64,000 bases of DNA from Psammoneis japonica (taxonomy: Eukaryota): positions 1-64,000 of the forward strand of contig QPGO01000229.1 of the NCBI GenBank assembly GCA_008632985.1, read 5' to 3'. Below the pieces are notes generated by a model. It did no database searches and was not told the DNA's origin. It was given only the letters and a program-made list of their open reading frames with translations. Shown piece after piece: positions 6,931 to 47,959 of the stretch. The position numbers and the translations under genes are program-made. Numbering within the stretch: position 1 is the first letter of the stretch; the number at the start of each line of letters is the position of its first letter.

Positions 6931-6969
6931 ATCCGTGTTATGCTGAGAGTTCTAGTTTACTTTGTGAGA

Positions 6970-10360: not shown

Positions 10361-10763
10361 GTTCTATAGTTTGATCGGAAGAAATAATGGGACTTGGTAT
10401 GATGATGGCGGTGTCAGAATTTTTTTGTCAGGTCGCGACCGAAAAAAAATGAGAAGCGGATGCTCACGGATGACGGACAGAACAGATAGTTTCGGTGGTG
10501 TTTCATTTTTACTGATTAAACGTTTCAGATTCCGGATTCCGATGAAAGCTAGATGCAATGACGTGTTGAGTACTACAGAAAACGTAGGATCTACATACGA
10601 GTTTCGCTGGTACTGATACCACGTAGCATCCGCCCAGTTTTGGCCTCTTTCCAGCGCCTTCGACAAAGACAGAGCGTTTCACGACAGTGCCGTTCTTGTT
10701 TCTTGTTGGGGCAAGTGTTTTGATTTGTGAGCGAGCCAACGACACCCGAGATTGATATCCATC

Positions 10764-13700: not shown

Positions 13701-13815
13701 TATGGATCGTGAGAAGTTGTTCGCGACGGGTGCGGATGCCATCAAGACCGAGGGCAAAATGTACGATGTTCTAGACGCTGCCAGCGGGGACCTTCTCGGA
13801 GGTGTGAATGCTTGA
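10764..13815 (+). CDS. DDM1: SNF2-family chromatin remodeller, DDM1/LSH (HELLS) subfamily, multi-exon
   Basis: [129 protein letters not shown]. Short C-terminus with no SANT or bromodomain. Confidence 0.85.
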
Positions 13816-14033
13816 GTGATGATGCGATGAGCGCCTTGAGTTGGGTGCATCGGTTTTGTTATGAAGTTCGTGGAAAAGAGTTATTAGAGATGACACCGTC
13901 TTCTTGAAGAGACAGTGGACGACTCTCACCGACCACGATACAAGTAAAGTAGACTTATGGTATTTTGATCCTTTTGCTTGCACGAATTGTGATCAGTATA
14001 GAATATCTAGCTGTGCAACACTAAAATTGACTA

Positions 14034-16553: not shown

Positions 16554-16767
16554 AATGTCTCGCGCGATCCTGCTTGCGCGCGCGCGCGGTGGGTCATCGA
16601 AGCAGTCTGTCTGCCTGCCAGCCGTCTCGCACCGCAGCCATCGATGTGTCGACCCATGTCTGATTGGCGGTTGTGCTTTTAGCTCACTTTCTCGGCTTGC
16701 TTGCTTATCTTGCTAATCGTTGCATCGACAAGCAGCTTAGACCTTAGACGTTTTTATCAACATCACG

Positions 16768-18156: not shown

Positions 18157-18160
18157 AACA

Positions 18161-18185
18161 TGTGTGTGTGTGTGTGTGTGCGTGT
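18161..18185. repeat. (TG)n microsatellite in the SOF1 3' flank
   Basis: Run of TG dinucleotides directly after the stop codon. Confidence 0.85.
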
Positions 18186-18499
18186 TTCGCATTTTCGAGT
18201 ATGTATTTCAAAGAGTAAATCATAATGCACTCTCGGTATTCTAAGAGTATTGTTAGGAAATTGGTTTGTGAATGAAGGAATCGCAGGCAAGCACAAAGCA
18301 AGCACGCAATCGCATGCATGCCTGTACCTATGCATCGTGCGTACTGTACAAAACAATATACAGCACAAATTCCTGATACAGCCATGGTGTGAGAAGCAAG
18401 AGTACACCTAAAGGCTTGGAATTTGCCTCCGTAGGGTTCAAAGGGTGTCCCACACGTCGTTGGGAATGACTGCTGTGGCCATATTATTTGGTGCAGTGC

Positions 18500-19837
18500 T
18501 GCTGTTCTTCAAAAAGGTTTTGTACCGTTAACAAATATTGATACCGGTAAGTCTAGTGAAGATCAACGTCGGAAAAGACGGCTTTGGCCGAGGGCCGCCG
18601 CTAGTAGATATCTATATATTACACCAAATGCCTATCTCCTAAGGTTCCATGTAAATGAATGCCAACAATGTCTTCTTCTGTTCCTTGTCGCAAAATATGG
18701 ATGCGTGAAACATGTACCGATACTGTGTTCTTCTCTCTTCTTCTTTGGGATCCTTGCTAATTTGTGCATGTATGTACTTGCCGTCTTTTACGCTTCTTGC
18801 TCCTCACGAACATAGTCCTTCGTCTGCGACTATTGCCAGTCCCTGGATCATTCTATCTCTTATTCCCTGCTCCAGTTGTCTTTGCTTGGATTGCCGTGGC
18901 CACACGTCTCTGCAACAATCAGATCGCCAACTGATGCAGTTTGGCCCTGCCACACAAGGCACATGTCGGTGTCAATCACCCTAATGACGATACCATCGTA
19001 CTCGAGCTTCTGGAGAGGATTGGATGAGTCGCACTCCTGGAGACGGACCGTCTTTCCCTCTTCTAGAGGCCATGAAAGACCGGCCTGGATGCAGTAATCG
19101 TCGTCGAGTTCACTCTCAAACAGGCCATTACTACGCATCCGGAACCCGGTACATCCTGTTCCCAGGGCGAGCTTGGGTCTGCAGTTGCACACCGATGCCT
19201 GAACGCCGAGGCAGAGACCATCGGCATCATCGTTTCCGAAGTGTGTGTAGGAAGAACCTAATTTCCGTAAACCACCATGCGTGTCGTCGAGCACTTTCCA
19301 TCCACCTTGGACAAGAGGAATGGCGACAAGCGAGAATAACGCATGCACGGAGAGCTTCATCGTTGTTACAGTGAAAAGATGTTGTTTGTCGATTGATTGA
19401 GATGCTTCAATATATGAGTTGGAAAAATGACATTCATTTTTTTGGAAGCCCATCACTGCAAGTCTCCGCTCTGCTCGCAGAAAGAGACATTCTTACATAT
19501 GACACGATTGATTTGTTATGCGAGCCTTTCCAAGGCAATATAATCGGGGGCCCTTGCGATTCGGGGTCGCGCTTTCGGTCGGATGCGTCTATTGAGAACA
19601 TCAATCGTGTCGCTTGAAAGGTCCTTCTCCGCGATGCTGAATCGTGAAAGAAAGTTCTTACGATTGGATTGTTATGGGGCCTTACATAAAGGGCAAGTCC
19701 TTCATGATTCACTTCGCGCTTTCACAATTAACAGAGTCGCGGTTTCATGGAGGCGGTTCAAGATGATTCTCTTCACAGTTTGAGTTCGCAGTGCAGTGTT
19801 CACAGTCGAGACCGAAGATGAGAGAACCTTCTGCATT
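18500..19837. repeat. Segmental duplication, copy 1 (paired with ~33969-35330)
   Basis: Long high-identity match from CTGTTCTTCAA...TTTTGTACCGT through ...GATGATTCTCTTCACAGT. Homology resumes just after the 3' LTR (23911-23933 vs 35300-35322). Confidence 0.9.
18860..19360 (-). CDS. Small secreted ricin-B-lectin-like protein, copy 1
   Basis: Signal peptide MKLSVHALFSLVAIPLVQG. Cys-paired motifs GLCLGV, DYCIQAG, VRLQECDSSNPLQ, DMCLVWQG and VAETC...NW resemble beta-trefoil repeats. Confidence 0.65.
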   Translation of the reverse strand: MKLSVHALFSLVAIPLVQGGWKVLDDTHGGLRKLGSSYTHFGNDDADGLCLGVQASVCNCRPKLALGTGCTGFRMRSNGLFESELDDDYCIQAGLSWPLEEGKTVRLQECDSSNPLQKLEYDGIVIRVIDTDMCLVWQGQTASVGDLIVAETCGHGNPSKDNWSRE

Positions 19838-22800
19838 TGTCGCGGAACATGACTCAAGCGGGACTCAAGTGATTGGGTCCCGGTCACGATTGAAGGATCA
19901 CGCGGCAGACGACCACAGAAATCGGAGCCGACCATGAATGCCGCAATCGATCTTGAGGAACAAGATCAATGAATCGAGTGGATGAGGAGCGACGATTTGA
20001 CAAGATCGGTTTGGTGAGATTGATTTGGTAGGATTGATTTGGTAGGATTGATTTGACAAGATTGAAGTCCAGCAGAAGAAGTGGAAAGGTGGATCGCAAA
20101 TCATTGACGAGAGTGAGAAAAAGTGAAGGCTGTTTGCTTTGGTTTTGTGCACTCTTCAGCAGCATCAGCATCTGGTTGTCCAACATGATGTGTGTTGACA
20201 TTTTGTGGCAACAGCGCATCCAAGAGCAGTGAGTGTGAGAAGCGATGAGAGCAAGGAAAAAGAGACCTGCGAGACTTCTCCTTTGTCGTGGAGCGAAGAG
20301 AGCACACTTCGAGAATGTTTTTGGTGAAAATCGAGCTGTGCAAGAGTGACTGCGGTTGTGACAAAGCAGCCAATGTGGACCTGGGAGACAAGCTTCTTGC
20401 AAAGGTGGAATGCACAAGCAGAAAGAAGAAAGCAATGCAAGTTGATGGTGCAGAGACCCTGGAGGATCTTGGCAAGGAGGGCAAGAGAGATTGCACAAGC
20501 TGAGAGCACAAAATCTTTTGCCAAGATGATCCGAGCATTGCCTGAAAACTTGATCCAGGACAGCAAGAACCAAGGTGGACCAAAGAAGTCTGTGTGTTGG
20601 ATCAAGGAGTGCCTCAAGGAGCACTGCTTGGAGCAACATGCAGTGGATGATTGCCAGAACCTCTGTCAGAGGAGGTGTTGGTGCTAGAACCAGGTGAGTT
20701 CGAGGACGAAGCGCTGCTCCATTTCAACAAGTTGGAAGACGTTGACTCCAAGTTGGGAGCAATTGATGACAAGTGTTGCTTGAATGAACTTCAGTTGAAG
20801 ACTGACATCTGCACAAAAGTCCTGGATGACAACAAGCAGAGTTCTTTCAAGTTTGAGTGTTGCAAGGACGGCACGATGGAGAAAAGCGGGAGTGGGGCAC
20901 TCATGGTCCACCAGGAGGATCTGCTGAGTCCACAAATTGATCTTCTGGAGTGGACAAGACCCTGGCTGTGAAGGTGCAGGGCAGCAAATTTTGCCCTGGC
21001 AACTGTGGGAAGTGCAGCCAGAAAGGTCACAAAGCCAACTTTTGTCCAAACAAGAACAACAAGAAGTCAAAGAAGTTTGATGGTGACTGCTGCAATTGTG
21101 GCAAGCACAGACACAGGGCAAGTGACTGCTGCAAGAAGAAGATGGATGAGAAAGAGGAAGACAAGGAGATGGACAAAGTCACACTCACAGTGTTTGACTC
21201 AGTTCACTTGGTTGAGGAGGGCAAGAACCCTGTTCCTGATTCTTTCTTTGACACCTTCAACACCAAGCCTGCAGCAGTTCAAGAGGGAACTTAAGAGATT
21301 GGACAAATGGAATGAATCACCTTGTTGACCTGGTGTGAATGGAACAAAATGACAGACAATGAGGACAAAGAAGACAACAATGGCATGAGTGTGCCAGAGC
21401 CAGAAGTTCCTTTTGTGTTTCCGACAAGGACAAGGATGAAAGTGTCCCACCCTTGGTTTGCCAATGTGATTCCAACAGCAACACAGACAGCATCAAATTG
21501 ATTGACATGAGCTCTGTGGTCCTTTCCAAGAGTTTGAGAACAAGGATTTGGACAGAGAGGATGGTGAGTGGACAGCATCCCACCTCTGATCTGCCATTGT
21601 GACTTAGATTCTTCATCAGACGATTCTGAGTTTAAGCACGATGCGGACAATGAAGACAAGATGACATTGATGTCTGGTGTGCAACATGAGCCAGAATGCA
21701 GTGGGCTGGTGTTTAGCTCCTGCTGGACTCTGGGTCAACAGCACTTGCCAAGAGGTCTCCTCAAGGGATGAGGAACCTCAATGAGGTCAACAAGGTTGTG
21801 AAGGACATGCATGATGGCAGTTTGGCAGCAAAGCTTCAGGGAGATTTGCCACTCACATGCTGGAAAGGGAATGGTGCAGTGGCTGTTGCTGAGATGCACG
21901 TCCAGCCAAATGTCCCCCACAACATTGTGAGCCTGATGAATCTGTTTGAGACTAATTGCATCCTCAGCCCCAAGACAGACCCCAAACAAGCCATTGTTCT
22001 TGAGTGCCCTGATGGCATGGAACAAATTTTTGAAAAATCTGCAAAAGATGGGCTGTTTTGTGTGGAAGTGGAGTCACTGACAGATGCTTCCGAAATGATT
22101 GCAGATGTGTCTGTGGACAGAAAGTCAGACAAAAGGGGTTGGACAAGTGAGTCCACATCAACCGTGCACACATTTCATTGAATCACAGCATGGGTGAACA
22201 ATGCGCGATGAAAACTGCAGCGGCCAATTTCAGTTGGGAGTTGAGAGGATGCAAAAGACCTGTGAGCTCTGTGCAAAGGCAAAGGCTGCACAGCAAAGCC
22301 AACTGTGAAGAAGGCCAGTGACAAGAAAGTGGCCAAGCCTGGACTCCAGCTCTGTCTTGACATGTCAGGACTGTGCACAAAGCAGCGCACAGCAAGAATT
22401 GACACCATGTGCAATGATGGTTGATCAGCATGCAGATCAACTTTGGTTGATGCTCAAAGCAAAGAAAAATGAATTTACAAACAACATCAAGGCTCTGTTG
22501 ATCAAGCTGAAGGGTCAAGGGCACCCAGCTGAGTTCTTGCATGTGGACAATGCACCAGAGTGGGGCAAGCTTTTGAGCCAATTTGTGATGAGCATGGAGT
22601 CACAATGGAGCATGCCTCCCTGAACACGTCACAGTTCAATGCAGCAGTTGAAAGAGCATTTCCAACAGTGTGCAATGTGCCTCACACACGACATTGAAGG
22701 CATCCGACTTTGATGAGATTGAGCAAAGTTGACAGCCAATTGGCAAATGTGCTGCAGGATTGCACATTTGTTCATAACTTGGTCCTGCACAGGGACTGGA

Positions 22801-23897
22801 GCAATGCCCGTGAACCATTTGGCAAATCACCACTCATCAAAACCAAGAACCTGGTGGAGTTTGGTGCAAATGGGTGGATGACCAAGGAGATTTGTGTTGC
22901 TGGGATGAACTGAGAATCACTTGAGCCACACCTGCATTGTCCAGAAGGTGTCCAATTGTTGTTGTGCGTTGACATGCGAGTGGTGTGGGGGAGTCTGAAA
23001 TGCCATTTTCAGCCATTGAAGTTGAGGTGACCATTGGAGTTGAGAAGCATGGGGGTGTTCAATGATGGGTGGGGGGCAGACAAAAATGAACAAAAGAGCA
23101 TTTTGAGTGCACTTTCCACACTGGGTGGCACCACATTGACAAACTGGCAATCAAAGAAACAGACCTTGGCAGCACTGAGCAGCTGTGAAAGCAAGACTGT
23201 GGTGGGTGCAGCATGTGCACAGGACACTCAGTTTCAGAGTGACTTGCAAGAAGAGATCGTGGGTGCAGAGAGGCGGAAAATGCCAAGTCATGTGCACAGA
23301 GACAATGCTGCATCGCTGTTTCTGGCTGTCAATGATCAAGTGGGACAGCAGACAAAACACATTTGTGACAGACATTTTCAATTTTGGGGCAAGCTGGTGC
23401 AACAAGGAGAAGTTGAACCACGTCATGTCAGCATGGAGAAGAACCCAGCAAATGTCAACACACCAAGAACAAGTGCATCAAGAAGATGCACAAGAGACCA
23501 GCTCAGAACCTGCTCACTGCTCAATGGACTCATGATGGTGGAACCGGAGCCAGTCAAGAAGGGTGTCCCAGAACATGACTCAAGCAGGACTCAAGTGATT
23601 GGCCCTGGTTGCGATTGAAGGATTGTGCAGCAGACAACTGCAAAATCTTGGCTGACCACAAATGCCACAATCAATCTTGAGGAACAAGATCAATGCATCG
23701 AATGAGTGAGGAGCAGCAATTTGACAAGATTGGCTCAACAAGATTGATTTGGTGGGATTGATTTGACAAGATTGAAGTTCAGAAAAAGTGGAAAAGCAGG
23801 TTGCAATTTAGCAAGAGTGAGAAAAGAGAAGATCATTTGCTCCAGTTTTGTGCGCTGCTGATGAGTGTCAGCAGTGTTGGCATCTGGTTGTCTGACA
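19838..23897 (+). mobile_element. Decayed Ty1/copia LTR retrotransposon; RT apparently deleted
   Basis: Related LTRs at ~19838-20185 and ~23564-23897, both starting TGT, with a purine tract AAGAAGGG before the 3' LTR. Two Gag CCHC knuckles (~21000-21130), protease LLDSGSTAH (~21720), integrase LCLDMSG / LHVDNAPE / QFNAAVERAF, and RNase H WQSKKQTLAALSSCES / DNAASL / TKHI, in copia order. LTR right ends are approximate. Confidence 0.85.
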
Positions 23898-23949
23898 CTC
23901 ATGATTGCTTGCATGTGCCATCCTTTGTCTGTGCAGAAAACACCCTGCA

Positions 23950-26900
23950 CTCCATGAACAAGCTTGTTGGGAATGGGGATCACATGGTGGATTGTGGTGG
24001 TCATGTTTGAACTTTGACTGGGCTCTCCGGAACGTGGGGGTCAGAGCCTTGGTGAGAACAGGAAGCCACGCAGATCAGCGCCACATCCTGCACAGGTCCT
24101 TTCCACTCAGGAGCCAGACAACACTCACTTGGAGATGATGCAAGAACATTCATTGAGGACTTTTCAGCCACAATCAACAATTCTCCAAAAGTTTTGTGTG
24201 ACCCCTGCTGAAACTCAAGTGATGAGATGATGTGACATCAAATGTTGTGAGACAACAAAAGCAGTGGCTTGACCAGGTTTTGGCCTTTCTTCTGGTGCAC
24301 TTCAATGGGGGTCTATGCAGGAGGATTGGAAAAATTAAAAACAAATGATGCAGGGGCCACAGAGGCACAAAAAACACAAAAAACACTCAACCTCCTTCAA
24401 CCTCACACATCTTCTGATGGGAAAACCCGGCGGAAATCAAGCGCACTTCTGGAGGGATCTCAGGCAAGCATGACACATCAAGTGGATCTTTTCCACATCT
24501 GGTCTGCTGCTCAATGCATTCCTTGCTTGCCCCATCCATGTTGCCAGAGTCAATCATGCTGGCAGTGCAAAAGTGAGCGCACTTTGCCCATGACATCTTC
24601 GCGGCCCTGCAAGAAACCCGTTGGTGTGCCTCGCAGTGACACCCTGCCATCATCTCATGCTTGCACCAGTCCAGGAATCTGTCATGTTGATTGATGAAGT
24701 CAATCTGGTTGTTGCCATGAAACCTGCAAGCAGCAATGGCGGTGTTCGTGCTGTTTCCGGCCACATCACTTCCAGCTGCGGTGCACTGCCACATGCCTGC
24801 GCATGTCTTTTTTTGTGGGAGCCTTGTTTGCCTGCAAACCATTGCTCAATCAGATGAGCTGTCATTGGATGTGCAGCCAATTCATTTGGGTTGTGCTGGG
24901 GCCATGAGTGTCATCACAGCGAATGTCCGCATGTCGTGCAAGTCGGAGCTGATCACCTTGCATCATGGTCTGGCTGTTGCAGCCAGCCAGTCCATGAAAC
25001 TGACAAGTTCTTCCAAGCAGCAGATTGAATGACACAGTTCAATGTCTTGTCTTTGTCAATTCAAGACAGAGCATCTGCAGCAAGCTTGTCATGAGCTGTT
25101 TCAAACTTGGTGAGCAAATTTTTGGTGTGTCACTCCTTGTGTGCCACCAGAGCAATGTCAACTGCCGCTGATCTCACAATGAATTTTTGATTGGGAGGTT
25201 TGTGCTCCTCCCAAGTTGAGCTGTGCTGCAGTGACCAAATGACAAACTTGGCAGACTTTGGAGTGACATCTTGTTTTGGTGCTGCTTCCAAGAAGCACAG
25301 GTTGACCATCAGAGTGCACGACATCGTAATGTCTGCACACATGATAAAAATGTGTTGCCACATTATAAAATCTGCTCATCTGCACATGACGGTTTTTGTC
25401 ATTTAGTTGGTCATTGATCTCCTGCTGTTCTTCACATTTGAATGCAGATGTTTTTTTAATTTTCATGCTCTGCCTTTTTCACAACAACCAACGATCTTTA
25501 ACGACAAGCCAAACATTGCAATTGCATGCAATGAAATTTTCATCATGCAAAGTGTGCACCAATTGTTCAATCAACAACTGTGCTCCAATTTGCCCAGTCG
25601 TCCGCATCGTCCTCTTCATTCCACATGTCTTGTCCACTCTCTTGCAAGAATTTCAAATGTGCCGCTGCCGCATTGGATGTTTCCTCGTCACCGTTCCAAA
25701 AAAGCCACACTGCATTTCTTGCATTTGGGTGAACATCATCGAGAGGAAGAGGTCCCTCGAAACGCTGAATTGCATCACTGCTCCCCTCTTGATGTCATGT
25801 CATCAGCTTCTTTTTGTCTTTCTTCATTTTGCCCGTCCTGTTTTTCTCTTCCTTCCTCGTCTTGGTGCCACCTGTTTTCACCGTCTCCGGCGTCTTTCCA
25901 TCCGAATCCTTCTTTTTCATCAATCCCGTTGCCGTCGCCTTCATCTCTTGTTTTTGTTTTTTTTTTTTGTTGTGTCACTTTGTTTTGGATCCATGTTTCT
26001 GACTTCTCTCCATGCCATCTCCATTTCTGAATGTTTCTTTGTGATTGTTCGCATGCGTCACTTGAGGGCACCCACGTGTTTTTCACGTGCCTTAACGCGC
26101 ATGTAGAAATCCATGTTGTTTTCCAGTGCATGCACCCTTTCTCCTGATGCTGTTCTGCACAACATTTTCTTCCATCAATTCTGCACTCCACATTGCCCTT
26201 TCCCAGTGTGATCTCACGTGGGATTTCCCTGGGAGAAGTTGCACGTGCGTCTGGCAGGTTTTTGTGTTTAAAACTCCAAATCGCACCAGGCGCGCATGCA
26301 ACTTCTCCCACACACCACTCTGGAACATTTCCACAGAAACCAGATTTTTTGGTGTTGGAACAGCAACCATGGCGCCGCGTGACCTGTTGGTTGCCTCTCT
26401 GTTGCAAGACAACAATGATTCCCACCTCGAGGAGGCCGCACTTGAATCTCTCTTTGCCAACGGTTTTGGAGTGATCGACAGCAACGAGCGGAGCCATGTC
26501 AAAGCGATGATCAAGACGGTGAAATCCAAGGTTCAGTTTCACCGCGATTCCACTTATGATCCCTCTCCGAACTGGATTGCGCTTGCCTGTGTGTGGCAAA
26601 AGTTGAAGGGCAGACCTCATTTTTTTGCAGAACCAATGGCTGTGAACCGTGTTGTTGCAAAGGAACTTGGGTGCAAGAGCTTGCTGCACTTTCTTTCTGC
26701 AAAAGGATGGAGTCACTCCAGTCAAGGCACCAAACATCCTCATGCGTTGGAGTGTCGCCGTGCTCCCAAAGCAGAGGACATGAAAGTCGTCGGCAACAAG
26801 GCAAAATCAACAGACATTGCAACCAACATGATGGCAAAGATTTCCATGTTGCACAAGCTTCTCCATGATCCCGGATTGTGCAACCCAAAGGGAGAGCCAC

Positions 26901-29900
26901 TTGTCAAGCACATCAAGCTGAGAAGTTTTGAAGGGAAGGTTTTGTGTTGCGCGCAATGCCTTCACATTGGTTTTTTGATTCTTTGTGACAAGATTCTGCC
27001 ATGCGCACCTGAAAGGAATGGTGATTGCGATCATTGGCTGCACTCCCTGTTCAGCGAATGTGACAAGACATCGACTTGCATCAACTTTTTGGAGAATTTC
27101 CTGGCTCTTGGTCACTGTGAGATGACCAAAGACGAATGCCCTGTGTCCTTCCCTGAATTCGTAAAGTTGTTGTTCCGCCAACACAAACATTCTTGGGAAA
27201 AGCCCATGCGACTGGCGATGCTCGATGTCGAGCAAGAACAAATGCGTGCAGCACATGTTGATGAGACTCTTTTAAGATGTGTGAAAATTGATCATGTGCT
27301 TTCTGCCGCTGACGATTCCGGCAAAAGCAAGGCCACAAGGGATCGTTTTGAGGCTGTGTGGAAAGCCAGGCTTCGTGACTTTGCCACTCAGTGCAAGAAG
27401 AAAGAAATCGGCAATGCAACACCATCCGTTGCGAAAAATGCTCGGAAACGAAAAAATCCAAATGGTGTGAATCCATCACATTGTTTGATTGATTGTTTGT
27501 GCTCATCTTCTTAACTCCAATTCTTCTGTTCTTCTTGCCACCTCTTTAGCCGCCTCCCTTTGCTCCTCAAGCCCCAGTCTCAAAAACCCCAAAGATGGTG
27601 AACCTTCTGATGTTTCTCAGAACGAATCGCTGATTCTCCAAGATGTGCCGACTCTCAAGGAACAATTTGAATGTTCCCGAACAAAGTGGCTGACCCTCGG
27701 CACGACTTGTCAGTCGCCTCCTCCTCCCCCAGACAATTTCACAAAAGAAGAGCTTGTGAAAGTGTTTCCTGAACCATCTCCTTTTGTGATTCCGGGTGAG
27801 GTGAAGTCACAACATTCTCACCTTGTCGTCTTTGAGGAAACCCCCATTTCCGGTTCCTTCAAGGGGAGCTGTGTCAAGCACCAGTTGTTCCACAGCATCT
27901 CTGATTTCTGCTTGGTGAATCACCTCCGCAAGTTTGTGCATGGATTTGAAAACGGCACAGCTCCCAATGATCCGATGCAAGAATCGATGGTTGCGATTGC
28001 TTGCCCGACCCAGTCAACCTCTCATTTTTCCGACGTGGTCACTCATTTGTGACACACGGACAAGATGCATCAGAAATGCTTTTTTGGATTGCGACTCAGT
28101 GTGTCGTCGACACTCCGTGCAGTGTTGGAACATGGCAAGCCGAACGAAAAAAGGGATGGACCAGAGTGCAAGTTGTGCTGTCGGATCTGTTTTGGTTGTT
28201 GTGGCCAGAATTACGAAGTCGCAGACGGTGAGTTAGCTGAAGTGGGACCCACTCACAATCCTGGTGCCATCTTTGGCAGGGATGAGTGGGAGAAGCTTCC
28301 AAAGGATGTGCAGGCAATGACAGCCTCAATCTTGGACGCCGCGCAACTCTGCGAGGACGAAATTAATCTTGTTGCATTGAAAGAAATGCGTTCCTTCCAT
28401 GACCCGCACCGTGATGGTCTTTTCGCGGCTGAGCTCTGCAAGATGGTTGGAGCCAAGCATGTTAGAAGGGAGGCGTGGAAATTCAAGTTAAGTGCATCTC
28501 GTCGTCCGGCAAAAAATCCGTTAATTCGAAAACCGAGCTGCACATTGACAAAGAGGATTGTGACATGGATGGGCGCACCAAGACTGGTGCTCTTTGCTCA
28601 TCACTGCGAGACGCTGTTGGTCGCTCTTGGTCGTTGAAGGTTGTCACTGCATCCAAAGGCAATGCTGGAAACTGTGTCAGTTCGGTGCATGGGTGTGCCG
28701 AGTTCCGATCGCGTGTGCATGGTCATTTTGCAAAACTTGATCTGTCACATGCTGCAGAAATGATGAGACACCGTCGCCCTCATCGTCCTCCGTCAGGCAA
28801 GCTGACCCACAGAAACATCAAAGATTTTTTCCTTGACCCTCACTCTGTGTGGGTGGAAGAGGAAATTGGCAAGCCAAATCTTCCGTCCGACACAGCCAAG
28901 CATCCTGTCATTGTCATGCCAAGGAAACGTCTTCCGTTCGCCATTGTGAAGGACTTTAATTTCTCGTGCGGTTGTTCGGCAATCATCGACAACCTCGATG
29001 AGGTTGGTGCACACGATTGCTTTCGTTGCGCCGTTGTGGCTGGGCATCAAACCGGATTCTCCCATTTTTGCTGCTTGTTGTGCAACACAGATGCTGTGAA
29101 GTGTCCTTTTGTGGCTGGCGATCGTGTCCTTCATTGCTTCAGAGAAGCTGCGAGGCCACTCGGCAGCATTGCGGGGGATCGCAACAACCGACGCATGCAG
29201 AGCCCGGGACTCTATTTCGAGGAGGTTCATGTGGCAGAGTGCGGGACGAAACTCAACGGTTTGATGGATTTGCTTGTTGGCGGACTGGTTGTCATCATCG
29301 ACTGGATCAATGACAATGTTGGCAAGCCAACGTTTGACCACAAGGCGATCGAGGACATGTTTCAAACCGTGGTCCAAACATGGGATCATGCAGGTGCTGA
29401 TTGTGGAGAGTTCAGATGCATGAACTCTGCACAGATGTTGATGCTGTGTGACACAGGGATCCATCCTCACCCTGACCTTCGTAATCTTGTCTGTCCGGCA
29501 GCCAAGTTGGGAGCGGCGAAGCAAATGGAGGAAATGAAGGTCCCGGTGGAGGAGCACGATTTACTCTTGGAACGGATGGAGGGTGATTTTGATTTGGAAG
29601 ACTGTGGAAAGAATGGTCCAGAGTCTTTGCCATGTGACCTGAGTGCAGCTTGTGAAAAGATGGGAATCTGCAATGTCTTTTGTTGTGGACAGCATCTGTT
29701 GCTCTTGTTCTCTGATGGGCAATCAATGATCAAGCGGTTTGGAAGGTGTGGGTGGGAGCCAGTCCCATTCGTGTCGATTGATGAAGTTCGAGCCAAACTG
29801 GAACGGCAAAGAGAGGTTGCTTTTTCATGGCAATCACATTTGTTTTTTGTCTGATTGTGCCAACATCATCACATTGATTTCTCGTTCTAACAGGAAGAAG

Positions 29901-32900
29901 GCTGCTGGTGATTTGTTGTCATTCGCAATGAACAAAAGTGACGATTGCGAGGAGGAGTCAATTGACGAGAAAACAAGCAAACTTCCAACTGCTTACATGG
30001 GTGAAGAGGACAAAAGCGAAGAGCCTGTTGACGATGAGCACAACCAAGTTGCACATTGCTCCGAGGGTGAAGAGGACCACAGCGACTTGGGAGATTGTTT
30101 CGCAAGTGACGAAACTGACGGGGAAACACACAATGTGCTGTGGTTGGGGATGACCCGTCCGCTCAATGCAAGGCAACTGTCTTCTCAAGAATTGTGCTCT
30201 GAGAAGGGGGTGGCCTTAGTGTCGTCTGACCAACACAGGCGAGATGAGGCCCGCGCAATGGCATTTGAGGAATCTAACAAAACAATCACAAACATCGTTC
30301 CAACAGTTTCTCTCCAAGATGGCCATCCTGATCTGCGCTTAAATTGCAATGTGAAAGCAAGAGATTTCGTCAAGAGAGTCAAGCAGCAGTTTGAGAAACT
30401 TGTTGATTTCGACAACCATGGGTTCGACCAAATCATGTTGGACTGCTGCTGGATGCCAGATGGAGAGTGGCGCGACAGTCATTTTGGGATGACTCAATTT
30501 TTCCAAAATCTAATTGATCTTCGGGCCTTGCTCTCCAAAAACGATGAAGGGGGGGACACAGTGATTCCCTTTGCTCTTGCAACCTTCTTCCAGGTTGTCA
30601 AACAATGGAAGAAATTGTTGGCTGTGTTCGACACATGCACAATGGACAATGATGCTGCAAAGAGCCGTGCGAGTGTGTTCTTTGCAAGCAACCTTGTGAC
30701 CCAAGAACAACGAGAACGGTGGTTGGGAAAGCCTTCCGATCAGGAAGAAGCTCATCTTGGAGTTTCCAAAGAAGACATCAGAATGAAAGCAACGGAAGGT
30801 GCTCGCACCGCACTGCTTCACGTGCACCGCAATGACTTTGCCAATTCTGAAAGGATCAAATTCATCATGTTTGCAAGAAAGAGTCAGGTGATCACTGTGA
30901 GTGAATGACAGATTGACACGCGCACCCCATTTTAGAAACAAATCTGACCAACACTTCCTTCTGTCCTGTGCAGCCCAAACAAATGGGGCCTTTTCTTGTG
31001 CTTCTGCTGCTCCTGGACATTCTTCACAAACCAAAACATTGTCCCCAATTGCTTCGACAGGGACAACCCGCAACTTGGGTGAGCACTGAGTCTTCTCAGG
31101 CATTGAAAGACAGTTGTTTCGTTTGTGATCAAGCTGCCAGCGACTGACCAAGTCTGCGTGCTGATGCCGTTGCCTCATGGTTCTCTGGTCAATGTTGACA
31201 GGGCCTTCATCAAGACTCATGCTCGTTGTCCTTGTCTTGTGGATGAGAAGGGAAAAGAAGAACAACACGCAAAAAATGGTGGGAAAATGGCAAACATTGC
31301 ATTGTCTTCCAGATTTGGATGATTCTTGCAGGTGTGACGTGTCTGCATTTTGATTTTTTATCTGGCATTTACAGTGAATGTTGTTCTTTTTTATTTGCTG
31401 TCAAAACAAAGGATGTCATCTCCGTTGAAACGCAATGACAGCCATGTCAAAAAGCAAGTTGGACCATTCATTGTCACACACAAACATGTTTTCAAATTTC
31501 AATGTTGCTGACAATGACCCATGCAATGTCACAGAGAAAAACAGAGTGGCTGGCTGTCTCAACACGACCCAGACGACGGTTGCACTGTTGAACAGTGACA
31601 CTGCTCTCATTGTTGCCGTGCAAAGATCAAGATGTTGTCTCCAGCACCACAGGCAAAGAAGAGAAAGAAAAATGAGACCATCAAGCCAATGAGCCCGAGA
31701 CTTCAGGCAGTGTTGAAGAGAACAGGTGCGCAGGCAGTGCATGGTGCATTGAAATCAGAAGTGAAGGTGGCTGGAAATGATCTCTTTCCACAGGTGAAGT
31801 TTCTCAGTCCGTCAGAATTGGCAAGCAATGGGAGCGTCTCAATGTTTGTCAAGAAACAGATTGCTGGTGGCAACATGGACACTTCAAACTGGTCAGGAAC
31901 TTGGGAGGAATGGGCAAAAAAGGCGGTAAAAAGGCAAATTGACGACAGCAGAAACACGGTGTGTTCGGCCATTGGGGCGGAGGCAATGGCCCGCAAGCCA
32001 AGTGACCAATGTGCGTGACTCGAGAGTTGCGTGCATCTCACAAGAAGATGATGGTGATGCTTTGTCCATGTGGGCGTTGTCACTGAGGAAGAGGGAAAGG
32101 AAAAAGAAAAGAAACTCAAGGCGGCAGTCAGGAGGAAAAAGAGGAAAAAGTCAAGCCGTGACAAGAATGAAGAGAATGATGTCCCGTTTGTGCCGACATG
32201 GGATCCGTTCAGCCCAGACACCATCACCGGCGGCAAACGAAGGAACAAGCAGGCATGCAAGTGGTTCTGTGATCACATCCCACCTCAAACCAAGCAAAAG
32301 CAGGTGTGGAGTCGTGCCGTCAAAACTGGGAACGCACAGGTCTCACAGTTGTTTGCGGCAGGTGACAAAGCTTTGGCGCTGTTGGCCATGGAGAATTGTT
32401 GGCAGGTGTGGGCATGCAGGAACAAGGAGGAGGCGGTGGAAGAATTGGGTGAGGAAATGGAGCCCAAAGAAACAAGGCCTGCCCCTCGGCACACGAAGCC
32501 AAAGAAACAACGAGTGTCTTGGGGAGATGACGGAATCACTCGGTTCAACGATTTGTGCAAAGAGGTGACGAAAGACAGAGACTCCAAGGAGGGCAAGGAG
32601 TTTGAAAAGTGGCATGTGGAGATCAAGAAAAGCGAGTGCAAGAAGTCCGGAGAAGCAAAAAAGAAGAAGAAGACAGCACCGACCGGTGATGCAGAGAAGG
32701 TGAAGGCAATGAACAGCCCAATGGTGGAGAGCAGCAGGGACAACAATGGCAACAACGATGAGCAGGAGGAAGGTGCAAAAGGCAAAACGAACAGATGGAG
32801 GAGACGAGTCCGATGAAGACGAGTCCAATGAAGACAAGTCTGATGATGATTGTCAGCTCAGTTCAAGAGAGTTGTAGCAAGAAAATGTGCACACAGTTGG

Positions 32901-33960
32901 CACAGCACTCGGTCATTGCACTGCAGACGTAACAAGGAATTGACTTGACCGATGAAATGTTTTTCTCGTTTAAAACAATGTTTGCGAAAATTAACAAACC
33001 AAGGTTTGTGTGGCAATGCAATCACGCATTGGCATGTGGCAACAAGGTGGAGGCAGAAATGGTGATGTGGGCACAGTGAAAAACAGCACACACAATTCTC
33101 AATGAGTCATTGCAGTGTTGGCACACCAAACTTGCAACCAGAGGTTGGCCTGTCATCATGTGACAACGATGTTTTGCAGTGTTTTAACAAATTGTCATCA
33201 CGCAAATCTGCACATTTTTAACATTTTGTGCGCTCTGATGACCTGGTCTCATGTCAAGCGAGGCGGCCTCTCAACAGCAGTCTCTTGCACAAAACCTTTG
33301 CAATCAATTGACTTTTCCAAACCCTTCAGTCTTGGGCCACAACTTTGGACCAACCGCCCATCTCAACTCAAACTGCTGGACACCATTGGTTGTCACACAG
33401 CTGGCAGAGCTGACACTCTTTTGGCCCAAAAGCACAATGATGAGAGTGCGGCCTTGTTGTCGCTGGGAGCAGCTGCTGCGCCACTGGAGTTGTCAACACA
33501 CACCTGCTTTTGTTGATCTTTGAACCCAAAAGATGGCTCCACTGTGTGAAGCTGGCAAGCACCCCCCGGGGGCCGATGTTTGGAATTCCAAATGTCATTG
33601 TTGTTTGAGCAAGGTGGCTTTTCTCTCACACACCACCCCCAGAACTCTCACAGATGTGCTGCTTTGCCATCAGCATTGCTGTGCTCTGTGGCAGTGGTGC
33701 ACTGGCTGTCCATTTTGAGGTCATTGCTCAGGCTTTCACAGGGTCAGCAGGCCTGAGAATTGTTCGCTTGTGTTGTTCTTCAAAGCAGCCTGGTGTCAAT
33801 GAGAGCTTGGGAAGCTCTTGCTGCTTGTGATTCAGAGGTTGGGGGCTCAAATCTCTCAAATCCTGTGCCAAATCAATTGCTTCAGGGCTGGGTGGCATCC
33901 TCTCCCATGATTGCCATGATCATCTGTCTGGCAGGTATCTTTGCTGACTGGTTGGCTCTC
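23950..33960. mobile_element. Large decayed TE-like block with several eroded ORFs, possibly a large DNA transposon with cargo
   Basis: Same TpA-free composition as the adjacent copia. Long Tyr-poor, Cys/His-rich ORF remnants at 26126-27514, 27489-28637, 28475-29854, 29739-30908 and 31632-32816. The last (GDKALALLAMEN...WGDDGITRFNDLCKEV..DR) resembles TE accessory ORFs. Family and termini not identified. Confidence 0.5.
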
Positions 33961-33968
33961 ATGCTCTT

Positions 33969-35330
33969 CTGTTCTTCAATAATGTTTTGTACCGTAAATA
34001 AATGATGCCGGCAGTGAAGGTCAACGTCGGAAAAGACGGCTTTGGCCGGAGGCCGCCGCTAGTATCTATATATTACGCCAAACGCCTGTCTCATAAGGTT
34101 CCATGTAAATGAATGCCAACAACGTCTGCTTCTGTTCCTCGTCGCAAATATGGATGCGTGAAACATGTACCGATACTGTGCTCTTCTTTCTTCTTCTATG
34201 GGATCCTTGCTAATTTGTGCATGTATGTACTTGCCGTCTTTTACCCTTCTTGCTCCTCACGAACATAGTCCTTCGTCTGCGACTATTGCCAGTCCCTGGA
34301 TCATTTTGCCTCTCATTCCCTGCTCCAGTTGTCTTTGCTTGGATTGCCATGGCCGCACGTCTCTGCAACAATCAGATCGCCAACTGACGCAGTTTGGCCC
34401 TGCCAAACAAGGCACATGTCGGTGTCAATCACCCTAATGACGATACCATCGTACTCGAGCTTCTGGAGAGGATTGGATGAGTCGCACTCCTGGAGACGGA
34501 CTGTCTTTCCCTCTTCTAGAGGCCATGAAAGACCGGCCTGGATGCAGTAGTCGTTGTCGAGTTCACTCTCAAACAGGCCATTACTACGCATCCGGAATCT
34601 TGTACATCCTGTGCCCAAGGCGAGCTTGGGTCTGCAGTTACACACCGATGCCTGAACTCCGAGGCAGAGACCGTCAGCATCATCGTTTCCAAAGAGTTTA
34701 TAGTTTGTACTTAATTTTCGTAAACCATCATGCGTGTCGTCGAGCACTTTCCATCCGCCGTGGACAAGAGGAAAGGCGACAAGCGAGAATAACGCATGCA
34801 CGAAGAGCTTCATCGTTGTTACAGTGAAAAGATGTTGTTTGTCGATTGATTGAGATGCTTCAATGTGATTTGGAAAAATGGCACTTATTCTTAGAAGCCC
34901 ATCACTGCAGTCTCCGCTCTGCTTCGTTCGTAGAAAGAGACATATCTATCACACGATTGATTTGTTATGCGAGCCCTTCCAAGGCAATACAATCGGGGCC
35001 CAATGAGCTACGATTGCGATTCAGGGTCGCGCTTTCGGCCGTATTCAACTATTGAGAATGTCAATCGTGTCGCTTGAAAGGCCCTTCTCCGCGATGCTGA
35101 ATCGTGAGAGAAAATTCTTACGATTGGATTCGCTATGGGACCTTATTTATGTTCCTAAAGGGCAATGCAAAACGGGGTGTCCTTCATGATTCACTTCGCG
35201 CTTTCACAATGGACTCACGAATCAGAGTCGCGGTTTCATGGAGGCGGTTCAAGATGATTCTCTTCACAGTCGAGATGAAAGACCCTTCTCTCCTTGTTCG
35301 CATGTACGATCCTTTGTCTGTGGGAGAAAC
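33969..35330. repeat. Segmental duplication, copy 2 (paired with ~18500-19837)
   Basis: Direct-orientation, high-identity match to copy 1. Confidence 0.9.
34313..34813 (-). CDS. Small secreted ricin-B-lectin-like protein, copy 2
   Basis: Near-identical paralogue of 18860-19360, with differences mostly in the N-terminal part. Confidence 0.65.
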   Translation of the reverse strand: MKLFVHALFSLVAFPLVHGGWKVLDDTHDGLRKLSTNYKLFGNDDADGLCLGVQASVCNCRPKLALGTGCTRFRMRSNGLFESELDNDYCIQAGLSWPLEEGKTVRLQECDSSNPLQKLEYDGIVIRVIDTDMCLVWQGQTASVGDLIVAETCGHGNPSKDNWSRE

Positions 35331-45957: not shown

Positions 45958-46269
45958 TGTCTGTTGTAGTCTTGTCCCTTTATTGGCGAACGGAGGAAGC
46001 AGAAACGGGATCGGCGGGAGAAAGGAATGGCGAATACCACCACGACAAGAAAAAAGTAGAAAACGCCAACGCCGCAATCTCCAAATCTGGAAATCCACGA
46101 TCCAGATTTGTCGGCGATCGACACGATGTCGATCGACGGGCGGGCGGCGGGGGCGGGCGGACGACAAAACGAGCCGAGCACGCCGGAGAGTCTGTCCTGG
46201 CTTCACAGAAAGCCACACGCATTGTGATTGCCATGCCGACCGCACCTGTGCTAGAGTAGAGAGCGTGAC

Positions 46270-47650
46270 AAGGACACACCAGCTTGGAGGTTGGAGGATG
46301 GACCATTGTTTCAGACCGGCGATTTGGGTTGTGACATTTTCTCATTCGTCCGTTTGCAGAGAGCTTCCAGGGGAATTGTTTGTGACCTCCTGTGAGGGGT
46401 CCCAACCGCAGGAGTGGAGAGGAAGCCACCAATGCAGCAAAAAATGCCTCAACACCCACCAAATCCCAAGCTGGATGCAGAGGGTGGGAGAGAGATGGGG
46501 GGGGGCATGCTGAAGCTCCTGACTGTGAGAGGGGAGACACGGCCCAAATGAGAACACAACAAGAGACACAACTCCAACGGCCAACAACTGCACAGCTGTT
46601 TGCTGACTTTGCACAGACCTGCAGGGCCATTGGCAGGAGTGGGGGGGGGGGGGCTTTGTTGGTGCACTCTGCTGCAAAAAGTGCCTCTCCCAGAATCCAA
46701 GCAGGAGGACAAGGGCCTCCAGAGCTTTGTCCATGTGCAGAGCAAAGTGATGATGATGGCACAAGGGGCAAAGGGGACAAAAGAGTTGCGATGGAGGGCA
46801 AGGTTGTGGGCCAGGATCAAAGGGGGCTTCAGCTCTGGAATGAAGAGCAAAAAAGCACCCTCCAGTTGGCCAACATGCACTGGCTGAAATGTTGCAAAAT
46901 GATGAGCTCTGCCTGCAAAATGCAGCAGGTGCAGAAAGCACTTTGTCAAAGCACAGTGTGCCCAGCCCAAATGACAGACCACATTGGCATCAACTTGGGC
47001 ACACAGCAACCCTGCTGGTGGATTGGTCGCTCAAAGACAGCATGAGGAGGAGAGGGGTTGGAGGCACCACAAAGCCAAGGTCTTGGGGGCCAAGCAAGTG
47101 CCAGGCAGCAGCACATGGAAAATGGAGGTGACATCCACAGAGGGGTGACTTGGTGCATGCATCCATTTGACAAAAATGAGCAGATGAAGGTGTGTCTGGA
47201 AGCAGGAAGCATGCCACAACAGGGTGCACAGCAGGTGTGAGCCTTTGCACATTTGTGCAGAGGCCTTGTCAAGCAGGTGTGTCAGCAGTCAGCTGGAGGT
47301 CATCCCACAGATCGTCAGCCCAAATCTTGATTGCTGCTCATCAGCCAGCACAGTGTTGGCTGCAGGTCTGTGTGGATGATGAGTGTCCATGCCCCATGCT
47401 GCCAAACAACCTGCTTGTGCAGCTGTGAGTTGGCCATGTCACCCTGCCCCCTCATGCCATTCATTGACAATGAGGCCCAAGAATTAATCAGGAATCATGC
47501 CATCATGTCCCGGAACCAAGAGGCCAGCATGCAGTCACTTGTGGCCTGGAGCAACAACTTTTCTTGAGAGCCACGGCCATGTGAGACTGTGCTCAACATT
47601 GTCGTCCTTGATTCTAAAAATTGCTTTTCATTTCATTGCAAGGAGTCCAC
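46270..47650. mobile_element. Unidentified repeat relic with TpA- and CpG-depleted composition
   Basis: Abrupt compositional island between BAP31 and NOS. Tyr-free ORFs in many frames, poly-G runs, no recognisable domain. Confidence 0.45.
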
Positions 47651-47959
47651 TTCATTCTTGAAGTAAAGACCACACAGCCTGGAAAATGGGTGCAGTGAGG
47701 GAGAGCGAAAGGCGAGTTGTCGGAAGCGGTGAAGAGGCGGAAAAAGAGGAAAGAGGTGATGTGCTGTGCCGAGCGCCGCCAAAAAGGAGAGACCTCGTGA
47801 AATATGTCCAGACAGCTCCCAGCAGACTGACCGATAGAGTCAACAGAGCAGGACTACACCATCAACGGCAAACTCTCTACACTACTTGACTTAACGTTAC
47901 ACACGAACAACTGTCTTACACCCGAACCCCACGTACGCACTATTCAAACGACTTGAGCC

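What the first reader, a model, noticed from the sequence alone, without database searches (positions are those of the whole stretch)
19783..33960. Repeat-targeted TpA->TpG/CpA hypermutation ('reverse RIP'): candidate genome-defence system
Seen: across ~14 kb of TE DNA, TA almost disappears (only a few per kb by eye, mostly in TTA/TAA context), while flanking host DNA has abundant TA. TG and CA are in large excess. TE proteins lack Tyr and show Cys/His at likely Tyr sites, e.g. Gag knuckle GDCCNCGKHRHRASDC at 21082-21129 where C-Y-N-C-G-K-Y-type residues are expected. The LTRs differ TA vs TG (TGGTAGGATT vs TGGTGGGATT). CpG is still common at 26-31 kb, so CpG decay cannot explain it, and CpG decay would not remove TA anyway. 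Known: fungal RIP is C->T and creates TpA, the opposite direction. Inference: A->G on either strand of TpA, confined to repeats. This would fit a DNA adenine deaminase (TadA-family enzymes favour a T/U-A context) or error-prone handling of modified adenines in silenced chromatin. I do not recall this being described, but cannot search.
Basis: partly seen in the sequence, partly recalled or inferred. Interest (0 to 1): 0.95.

Follow-up and report, generated by a model that had tools for sequence, protein, structure and literature searches.

The report
TpA-erasing hypermutation of diatom transposons
A 14-kb block of transposon DNA in a diatom genome has had nearly every TA step turned into TG or CA, the end state of a foreign-DNA-directed hypermutation that one 2026 preprint reports in an unrelated alga.

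Summary
Over 19780-33965, TA observed/expected is 0.06 (56 TA against about 501 expected at the host's ratio) and CpG is 0.48. The TG and CA surplus (+445, +381) nearly equals the TA and CG deficits (-445, -445). The edges fall within tens of bases of the junctions with host DNA. A second island lies at 46260-47700. Accurate read contigs carry the same sequence, so it is not a consensus artefact.

Polarity is shown four ways: the LTR pair, Tyr to Cys/His against homologues, TA sites of a TA-normal relative, and the dinucleotide budget. So TA became TG or CA, on both strands, after integration.

The host is a diatom. The same signature was reported in 2026 for integrated viruses of the chlorarachniophyte Bigelowiella natans. 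It is therefore described, though my searches found no report in diatoms.

"Repeat-targeted" is not supported. A single-copy Ty1/copia remnant is hit, while a 1.3-kb host duplication flanking the block is untouched.

What this window adds:
- Transposons are targets, and erasure is near-complete.
- TA loss does not track CpG decay.
- There is a wider sequence rule: TTAA survives (81%), half-sites survive partly (19%), and all other TA sites almost vanish (2.3%).

The enzyme is unknown. A DNA adenine deaminase is the best guess.

The parts
18499..19779 (.). Left copy of a 1.3-kb host duplication that carries a ricin-B lectin ORF (18860-19492, minus strand). TA is normal, and it marks the left edge of the block.
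   Evidence: Self-BLAST: 18499-19779 against 33966-35270, 88.6% identity; alignment. TA o/e 0.61, CG 1.01. Pfam Ricin_B_lectin.
19780..33965 (.). TA-erased block of mobile-element DNA.
   Evidence: TA o/e 0.06, CG 0.48, TG 1.65, CA 1.63. 200-bp bins. Read contigs confirm the sequence.
19838..20120 (+). 5' LTR of a Ty1/copia remnant. It has lost TA (2 left) but keeps CpG (o/e 1.24).
   Evidence: Alignment with 23564-23845; composition.
20941..21291 (+). Gag fragment with two CCHC zinc-knuckle patterns.
   Evidence: Translation. tblastx is collinear with the gag region of L021, L040 and L046. There is no Pfam hit.
23031..23615 (+). RNase H / C-terminal Pol fragment with no Tyr. Conserved residues are changed by TA>CA and CG>CA/TG.
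   Evidence: 2132 representative proteins at E<=0.001. 5 of 5 scanned homologues carry RVT_2; some also carry rve or zf-CCHC. Column analysis.
23564..23845 (+). 3' LTR. Both TA (1 left) and CpG (o/e 0.16) are lost.
23846..25211 (.). Low-copy TA-free spacer of unknown origin.
   Evidence: TA o/e 0.02. Depth 313-364 against about 65 for single copy. No Pfam hit.
25212..33625 (+). High-copy element of unknown class, with long plus-strand ORFs at 26096-27511, 28466-29851 and 29730-30905.
   Evidence: Depth 4,000-22,650 against about 65. TA o/e 0.07, CG 0.63. No Pfam hit. ORF3 has one homologue, P0279.
33626..33965 (.). TA-free tail at single-copy depth, up to the right junction.
   Evidence: TA o/e 0.05, CG 0.04. 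Depth 92, and a contig bridges 33814-34175.
33966..35270 (.). Right copy of the host duplication, with normal TA. It marks the right edge of the block.
46260..47700 (.). Second TA-free and CpG-free island between host genes.
   Evidence: TA 3 (o/e 0.04), CG 14 (0.14), TG 1.76, CA 1.86. No similarity to the block beyond one 22-nt match. No Pfam hit.

Best explanation
The block is a nest of dead mobile elements in a diatom chromosome. It holds a Ty1/copia remnant that lacks its RT, low-copy debris, and an 8.4-kb high-copy element of unknown class.

After integration, a DNA-level process acted on either strand. It turned A:T into G:C specifically at TpA steps, giving TpG or CpA. It was confined to the mobile DNA and stopped within tens of bases of the host junctions. 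A second, slower layer, decay of methylated CpG to TpG/CpA, acts on the same DNA.

The TpA process is the same kind as the one measured in mutation-accumulation lines of Bigelowiella natans.

Most likely mechanism (inferred, not shown):
- A nuclear polynucleotide adenine deaminase is recruited to silenced foreign DNA.
- It deaminates A in 5'-T-A-B-3' (B = not A) to inosine.
- Inosine templates C at the next replication.
- TTAA has no good site on either strand, so it survives.

Because TA>TG/CA destroys TAA and TAG and never makes a new stop, long Tyr-free ORFs persist in dead elements.
For: Shown:
1. Budget: TA -445, CG -445, TG +445, CA +381 against host ratios.
2. LTR pair, identical at insertion: 45 mismatches in 245 columns, transitions to transversions 40:5, with 6 CA/TG double mismatches. 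The flanking host duplicate has 104 mismatches in 1269 columns, 66:38, and 1 such double.
3. RNase H fragment against 132 homologue segments: Tyr 0 of 185 residues against 2.9%. Three of 5 Tyr-plurality columns are His encoded by CAY, and there is one Val GTA>GCA. Of the 22 positions tested, 10 are explained by one TA or CG step.
4. ORF3 against its only homologue, P0279: 7 of its Tyr align to C(TGC), C(TGC), H(CAT), H(CAC), R, F and V. None is kept.
5. At the 22 TA sites of the TA-normal relative L001, the window has TG at 7, CA at 5 and TA at 0. A>G occurs at 8 of 22 sites after T, against 20 of 131 in other contexts.
6. The 80 related Ty1/copia loci have TA o/e 0.24-0.93, so the clade is not natively TA-free.
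7. TG is about equal to CA, and TA is missing in all three codon phases.
8. Density against host (share left): VTAB sites 0.51 against 22.3 per kb (2.3%), TTAB/VTAA sites 2.05 against 11.0 (19%), TTAA 1.22 against 1.50 (81%). Chi-square p = 5e-31 with the host baseline and 3e-14 with 77 TA-normal copia loci as baseline.
9. The sequence is present in accurate read contigs.

The B. natans preprint shows the same TpA>TpG/CpA spectrum arising de novo in integrated viral DNA.

Inferred: the T-A-B rule. It rests on the product contrast TTGB+VCAA +15.6 per kb against TCAB+VTGA +9.6 per kb, and on 2 single events (22775 and 29995).
Against: No enzyme, inosine or modified base was observed, and no genome was available in which to look for deaminases.

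In the 8.4-kb family only 159 places in 18 kb differ in at least 10% of read depth. About 560 would be expected if each copy had resolved its TA sites independently. So most of that family's TA loss is shared by descent and predates its amplification (where 40 of the 159 rows were shown).

The baseline for budgets and survival is host or relative composition, not the true ancestor.

The comparison with L001 is at only 54% nucleotide identity.

Differences between the read contigs and the window are of CG/TA<->TG/CA type at 4 of 4 shown sites inside the single-copy part of the block. But 2 of 3 sites in the left flank are of this type too. Ongoing activity is therefore not shown.

The read set is one sample and may be the assembly's own.
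Confidence: 0.62

Rival explanations
1. Thymine-side chemistry. A TET/JBP-type oxygenase or another modifier marks T in 5'-V-T-A-3' of silenced DNA, for example as 5-hydroxymethyl- or 5-formyl-uracil. Mispairing with G, or faulty repair, then gives T>C. On the duplex this is the same TA>CA/TG outcome.
For: TA is its own complement, so sequence alone cannot tell A>G from T>C. The context rule reads equally well as "T not preceded by T". The domain-limited pattern with sharp edges fits a chromatin-directed DNA modification. That oxidised thymines mispair, and that some protists carry 5hmU at TpA, is recalled and comes from no call.
Against: No data on base modifications. The only experimental paper proposes adenine deamination and names an ADAT2-like candidate, without a test. 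No thymine-modification defence with this outcome turned up in my searches.
Confidence: 0.15
2. Inherited rather than in-situ loss. Editing happened mainly in the replicating lineage, on RNA or cDNA during retrotransposition or in a master copy. Already TA-free elements then spread, so the block records ancestry and not a defence acting at this locus.
For: Most copies of the 8.4-kb family (about 60-350 by depth) share the TA-free state. Among the 19 shown high-copy rows, the window copy differs from the family majority mainly at CpG sites (10 of 19). A contig joins 33151 back to 25534, which suggests head-to-tail copies.
Against: The two LTRs of the copia remnant diverged by CA/TG doubles after insertion. 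TG is about equal to CA, which RNA-strand editing would not give. Non-coding spacers and single-copy debris are equally TA-free, and the erasure stops at the host junctions. Tyr-less Pol, with catalytic-type Asp>Asn changes, cannot be an active master.
Confidence: 0.12
3. Adaptive TA avoidance. The elements evolved TA-free sequence under selection, for example to escape a TA- or UA-cutting nuclease or TA-targeting insertions.
For: The family-level sharing of the TA-free state in the 8.4-kb element.
Against: Tyr is lost at conserved positions. Conserved Asp, Glu and Arg residues are also changed. No ORF reaches any Pfam family, while flanking host ORFs do. Non-coding parts are equally depleted. 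Relatives carry normal TA and Tyr.
Confidence: 0.03
4. Technical artefact: systematic base-calling or polishing error on modified DNA, or a chimeric assembly.
For: The read set is from one sample and may be the one used for the assembly. The library type is not on record.
Against: Contigs of 2.0-2.1 kb, built from exact 31-letter words at depth about 70, match the TA-free sequence with 1 and 3 differences. One contig bridges the right junction with none. Unrelated metagenome contigs L002-L004 show the same TA-free/TA-normal boundary inside related elements.
Confidence: 0.02

Closest known systems
TpA hypermutation of integrated NCLDV and virophage DNA in Bigelowiella natans (Mettrop et al., bioRxiv 10.64898/2026.01.13.699255; I read the abstract, Results, Discussion and searched passages)
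   Same: Transitions only at TpA, giving TpG or CpA according to strand. Confined to foreign DNA beside normal host DNA. A single-copy target is hit. That genome also has TpA-depleted CDS (mean frequency 0.0018) enriched in RT and DDE domains.
   Different: The host here is a diatom (stramenopile), not a rhizarian. The targets seen are transposons, and erasure is near-complete (o/e 0.02-0.10, against 0.45 for their NCLDV region). CpG decay lies on top. No rate was measured here.
Fungal repeat-induced point mutation (RIP); features recalled, and mentioned in the preprint's Discussion
   Same: A genome-defence-like point hypermutation that ruins mobile DNA in place and leaves a dinucleotide scar.
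   Different: RIP is C>T and creates TpA, the opposite direction. It needs duplicated DNA. Here a single-copy element is hit and a 1.3-kb, 88.6%-identical duplication is spared.
APOBEC3 editing of retroelements and ADAR hyper-editing of repeat RNA (recalled; the preprint's Discussion notes that ADAR prefers U before the edited A)
   Same: Deaminase-based mutation aimed at mobile or viral nucleic acid. ADAR shares the U/T-before-A preference.
   Different: Those act on cDNA or RNA and leave a strand-biased scar. Here both strands are equal, and the LTRs diverged after integration.
Decay of methylated CpG in silenced transposons (textbook; TE methylation in diatoms is cited in passages of PMC6604790)
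   Same: It is present here as a second layer. CpG o/e is 0.14-0.63 in the elements against 1.02 in the host. The window copy has TG/CA where the family majority has CG at 10 of 19 shown high-copy sites.
   Different: It cannot remove TA. TA loss also does not track it: the 5' LTR keeps CpG at o/e 1.24 with TA at 0.11.

Membership tests
B. natans-type TpA hypermutation of foreign DNA | Changes are A:T>G:C at TpA only, giving TpG and CpA about equally. | tested here: met
   Budget. L001 TA sites: TG 7, CA 5, TA 0 of 22. Tyr>Cys/His. CA/TG doubles in the LTR pair.
B. natans-type TpA hypermutation of foreign DNA | Confined to integrated foreign or mobile DNA, with normal host DNA alongside. | tested here: met
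   Edges at 19780 and 33965. Flanks have TA o/e 0.60-0.61. Host ORFs hit Pfam families while block ORFs hit none.
B. natans-type TpA hypermutation of foreign DNA | Does not require the target to be repeated. | tested here: met
   19938-24421 lies at depth 70-72, the same as the flanks at 60-67.
B. natans-type TpA hypermutation of foreign DNA | De novo rate about 1000-fold above the genome in mutation-accumulation lines. | not testable with these tools
   There is one sample of contigs only. Differences between reads and window do not separate block from flank.
Fungal RIP | C>T transitions that raise TpA. | tested here: not met
   TA falls to o/e 0.06.
Fungal RIP | Acts on duplicated sequence. 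| tested here: not met
   The 1.3-kb, 88.6% duplicate is untouched, and a single-copy element is hit.
RNA-level A-to-I editing fixed through retrotransposition | Strand-biased A>G on the transcript strand, acquired before integration. | tested here: not met
   TG 1509 against CA 1379. The LTR pair diverged by CA/TG doubles. Spacers are also TA-free.
Ty1/copia LTR retrotransposon (element at 19838-23845) | LTRs, Gag with CCHC knuckles, and Pol in the order PR-IN-RT-RNase H. | tested here: inconclusive
   LTR pair at 80% identity. Two CCHC patterns. An LLDSGS motif is seen in the read-through (its reading as a protease motif is recalled). tblastx is collinear for gag, IN and RNase H with L021/L040, with a gap where RT should be. 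The RNase H fragment hits proteins that carry RVT_2. No Pfam family is reached by the window copy itself.
TadA/ADAT-type polynucleotide adenine deaminase as the agent | A deaminase of this family is present and acts on T-A in DNA. | not testable with these tools
   No genome is held. The only link is the T before the target A. The preprint names an untested ADAT2-like candidate.

The most novel reading that the evidence does not exclude
Diatoms and chlorarachniophytes share an old, chromatin- or RNA-guided DNA adenine deaminase system. It works on duplex chromosomal DNA with a 5'-T-A-B-3' rule, independently of cytosine methylation, and drives mobile DNA all the way to a TA-free, Tyr-less state. 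Its enzyme would be a natural editor of A in double-stranded DNA. It could be found by comparing genomes that carry the scar with those that do not.
Probability: 0.3. Interest if true: 0.9.

Novelty: new member of a known kind. Interest (0 to 1): 0.78.

Why it matters
TpA-directed hypermutation has so far rested on one preprint in one alga, with no enzyme identified. Seeing its end state in a diatom has several consequences:
- The process spans at least two distant branches of the SAR group.
- It acts on transposons as well as on integrated viruses.
- The wider sequence rule (TTAA spared) is something any candidate enzyme must reproduce.
- The scar is easy to score in any assembly. Genomes with and without it can therefore be compared to find the gene.

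A natural enzyme that edits A in chromosomal DNA would also interest base-editing work. For annotators there is a practical point: such regions carry long Tyr-free ORFs that are dead, and profile searches miss them.

Tried and rejected
- Whole genome: none is held. There was therefore no genome-wide profile, no family consensus and no deaminase search.
- Pfam: 52 block ORFs of at least 100 aa, then 63 block ORFs of 40-99 aa, 12 island-2 ORFs and 2 repeated Gag-region ORFs, then 9 read-through frames (after one search failed on remaining stops). Nothing reached a cut-off.
- Class of the 8.4-kb element:
  - ORF 28466-29851 has no homologue of 254-809 aa.
  - The Atlas gave only weak leads: Plavaka/Transposase_21 at 0.82-0.84, and dsrm at 0.79-0.82 for ORF 26096-27511.
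  - Three scans of viral contigs found nothing.
  - P0279 has no Pfam family.
  - Its fold prediction had pLDDT 38 and was not searched.
- No RNA holder was listed among the runs.
- Island 2 has no relative in the block or in the 80 loci.
- Earlier scan notes: nothing relevant.
- Ongoing activity: not claimed, because flank differences are of similar type.
- Literature: seven searches found only the B. natans preprint for this signature. No paper holds TpA, CpA, TpG and diatom together. PMC9258296 was irrelevant (passages). Passages of the P. tricornutum mutation-accumulation paper PMC6604790 report a GC>AT bias and no regional bias.
- Rejected readings: artefact, RIP, and RNA editing (see rivals and membership tests).

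Full report
**1. Observation**

In 2-kb windows, TA observed/expected (o/e) is 0.02-0.10 from 20001 to 34000. Elsewhere it is 0.41-0.77, with one further dip to 0.17 at 46001-48000. CpG o/e is 0.18-0.78 inside and 0.93-1.10 outside. TG and CA rise to 1.4-1.95.

In 200-bp bins the change is abrupt at about 19800 and 33960. The second island is 46260-47700, with 3 TA and 14 CG in 1,441 bp.

For the block 19780-33965 (14,186 bp) the counts are TA 56, CG 390, TG 1509 and CA 1379. At the host's o/e one would expect 501, 835, 1064 and 998. The deficits are therefore -445 and -445, and the surpluses +445 and +381. What TA and CG lose, TG and CA gain.

- Tyr is 0.1% of residues in the 102 ORFs of at least 70 aa that overlap the block.
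- The knuckle peptide is at 21082-21129.
- The LTRs show TGGTAGGATT against TGGTGGGATT.
- Of the 56 residual TA, 48 have TTA on at least one strand.

**2. Not an artefact**

Contigs built from a public read set lie on the region at single-copy depth of about 60-72. They match 19938-22055 with 1 difference and 22386-24421 with 3. One contig bridges the right junction, 33814-34175, with none. The runs are one sample, possibly the assembly's own, and the library type is not on record. A second platform therefore remains untested.

**3. Anatomy**

The block lies exactly between two direct copies of a 1.3-kb host segment, 18499-19779 and 33966-35270, which are 88.6% identical. Each copy carries an intact ricin-B lectin ORF and normal TA (o/e 0.61 and 0.60).

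*Element 1, 19838-23845.*
- It has an LTR pair and two CCHC patterns.
- The fragment 23031-23615 finds 2132 representative proteins at E<=0.001.
- All 5 homologues scanned carry RVT_2; some also carry rve, zf-CCHC or Pol_BBD.
- tblastx is collinear with metagenome loci L021 and L040 for gag, integrase and RNase H. About 1.7 kb is missing where RT should be.
- It is therefore a Ty1/copia remnant. It sits at single-copy depth.

*23846-25211.* This is low-copy debris.

*Element 2, 25212-33625.*
- Depth is 4,000-22,650, which means roughly 60-350 copies at least 90% alike.
- It has long plus-strand ORFs but no Pfam family. Its class stays unknown.

*Host.* The Sof1/DCAF13 ORF has named hits only in diatoms (Mayamaea, Nitzschia, Fistulifera, Chaetoceros and others) at 63-68% identity. 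The best unnamed hit is 83%.

**4. Polarity: TA was there and was turned into TG or CA**

(a) *LTR pair.* The LTRs are identical at insertion.
- They now show 45 mismatches in 245 columns, with transitions to transversions 40:5.
- There are 6 CA/TG double mismatches, 12 CG/TG or CG/CA pairs, and 2 TA/TG or TA/CA pairs.
- The host duplicate has 104 mismatches in 1269 columns, a ratio of 66:38, and 1 double.
- A CA/TG double is what two independent resolutions of one TA (or CG) leave behind.

(b) *Protein columns, element 1.* I compared against 132 homologue segments. Of the 150 listed I dropped one 10-stretch polyprotein and 17 that covered fewer than 110 query residues.
- The fragment has 0 Tyr in 185 residues, against 2.9% in the homologues.
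- Three of 5 Tyr-plurality columns are His encoded by CAY.
- A conserved Val is Ala by GTA>GCA.
- Five further conserved changes are CG>CA and one is CG>TG.
- In all, 10 of the 22 positions tested are explained by one such step, and 12 are not.

(c) *Element 2.* The only homologue of ORF3, P0279 (55% identity), has 7 Tyr in the aligned part. The window has Cys (TGC), Cys (TGC), His (CAT), His (CAC), Arg, Phe and Val there, and no Tyr.

(d) *Nucleotide level.*
- At the 22 TA sites of the TA-normal relative L001, the window has TG at 7, CA at 5 and TA at 0. Identity is only 54%, so this is a coarse test.
- A>G occurs at 8 of 22 sites after T, against 20 of 131 after A, C or G.

(e) *The clade is not natively TA-free.* The 80 related loci have TA o/e 0.24-0.93. 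The 150 representative proteins have a median of 3.4% Tyr.

TG is about equal to CA, and TA is missing in all three codon phases and in spacers. The process therefore acted on both strands of DNA, not on a transcript.

**5. A wider sequence rule**

I classed TA sites by their neighbours and compared densities with the host.

| Site class | Block (per kb) | Host (per kb) | Left |
|---|---|---|---|
| VTAB | 0.51 | 22.3 | 2.3% |
| TTAB or VTAA | 2.05 | 11.0 | 19% |
| TTAA | 1.22 | 1.50 | 81% |

The skew is significant with either baseline: p = 5e-31 against host, and 3e-14 against 77 TA-normal copia loci.

The numbers fit two independent strand-wise targets per site, one of which is blocked by a neighbouring T/A. 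The square root of 0.023 is 0.15, which is close to the 0.19 observed for half-sites.

The product contrast favours "the edited A is not followed by A": TTGB+VCAA gain 15.6 per kb and TCAB+VTGA gain 9.6 per kb, with CpG input expected to be equal for both. Two single events also favour it: 22775 (ATAA against ACAA) and 29995 (TTAC against TTGC). This step is an inference with a host-composition baseline.

**6. Two layers**

CpG decay is a separate process from TA loss.
- The 5' LTR keeps CpG (o/e 1.24) and the 3' LTR has lost it (0.16), while both have lost TA.
- In the high-copy family, the window copy has TG/CA where most copies have CG at 10 of the 19 shown sites.

**7. What the high-copy family says**

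Only 159 places in 18 kb differ in at least 10% of read depth (I saw 40 of the rows). About 560 would be expected if each copy had resolved some 280 TA sites on its own. Most TA loss in this family is therefore shared, and predates its spread.

Since the proteins are Tyr-less, the spread was probably non-autonomous or by tandem duplication. One contig joins 33151 back to 25534.

It is why I keep an "inherited" rival. It does not touch element 1, whose LTRs diverged in place.

**8. Why long ORFs persist**

TA>TG/CA turns TAA and TAG into TGA, CAA, TGG or CAG and never makes a new stop. TAA falls from 6.8 to 2.1 per kb, and TAG from 7.9 to 1.0 per kb. Long overlapping ORFs on both strands are thus a by-product, not a sign of function.

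**9. Comparison with what is known**

A 2026 bioRxiv preprint (10.64898/2026.01.13.699255) reports the following for Bigelowiella natans mutation-accumulation lines:
- 231 of 302 new point mutations fall in an integrated NCLDV and a virophage.
- 230 of these 231 are A>G or T>C, all of them at TpA.
- The rate is about 6e-7 per site per generation.
- The genome also has TpA-depleted CDS enriched in RT and DDE domains.
- The authors name an untested ADAT2-like candidate.

The signature here is the same kind.

Seven searches found no other report. No paper holds TpA, CpA, TpG and diatom together. Passages of the P. tricornutum mutation-accumulation paper report a GC>AT bias and no regional bias.

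RIP fails on direction and on repeat dependence. RNA editing fails on strand symmetry and on LTR divergence.

**10. Beyond the window**

Metagenome contigs L002-L004 are the closest copia relatives, at 46-50% aa identity. They are TA-free over the Pol part (o/e 0.03-0.14 in 500-bp windows) and TA-normal in the rest of the contig. Four of the 150 representative homologues have no Tyr at all. Other organisms probably carry the same scar.

**11. Verdict**

- "Repeat-targeted" and "undescribed" are not supported.
- It is a new member, in a new phylum, of a very recently described and mechanistically open kind.
- The deaminase mechanism is my best guess and is untested.

Noticed in passing
window 18499-19779 and 33966-35270: The mobile-DNA block sits exactly at the joint of a 1.3-kb direct duplication of host DNA. 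Without the block the two copies would abut. Both copies keep an intact 210-aa ricin-B lectin ORF. Their divergence (8.2% of aligned columns) is close to that of the LTR pair after YR/YR-pair columns are removed (19 of 245).
   Followed up: partly
window 53058-53510: A 450-bp stretch with 1 TA (o/e 0.03) but normal CpG (1.18). It is full of repeated palindrome-like TTGCGGA...TCCGCAA words. It may be a third, unmethylated target or unrelated repeat DNA.
   Followed up: partly
L002 1-600, L003 1-700, L004 1-900: Metagenome contigs with related Ty1/copia Pol are TA-free over the element and TA-normal beyond it. L002 and L003 are 95% identical to each other.
   Followed up: partly
proteins P0159, P0164, P0250, P0188: These are Ty1/copia-like representative proteins of 111-291 aa with no Tyr at all. 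P0159 has Cys and P0164 has His where close relatives have Tyr in the PSYVYGDN stretch.
   Followed up: partly
window 33151 joined to 25534 (read contig): A contig of depth 41 joins the end of the 8.4-kb element back to its start, with 37 other letters between. This suggests head-to-tail copies somewhere in the genome.
   Followed up: no
window 6970-9973, minus strand: One ORF carries aromatic amino-acid (histidine ammonia) lyase and the urocanase N-terminal domain, and the urocanase C-terminal part is in the next ORF. This is an apparent HutH-HutU fusion. An arginase-family ORF lies on the opposite strand at 4721-6484.
   Followed up: no
window 48480-51409, minus strand: A nitric-oxide-synthase oxygenase domain lies next to flavodoxin and FAD-binding reductase domains, giving a NOS-like gene in a diatom.
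   Followed up: no
window 19838-20120 versus 23564-23845: The two LTRs of one element differ strongly in CpG retention (18 against 2 CpG), although both lost TA.
   Followed up: partly
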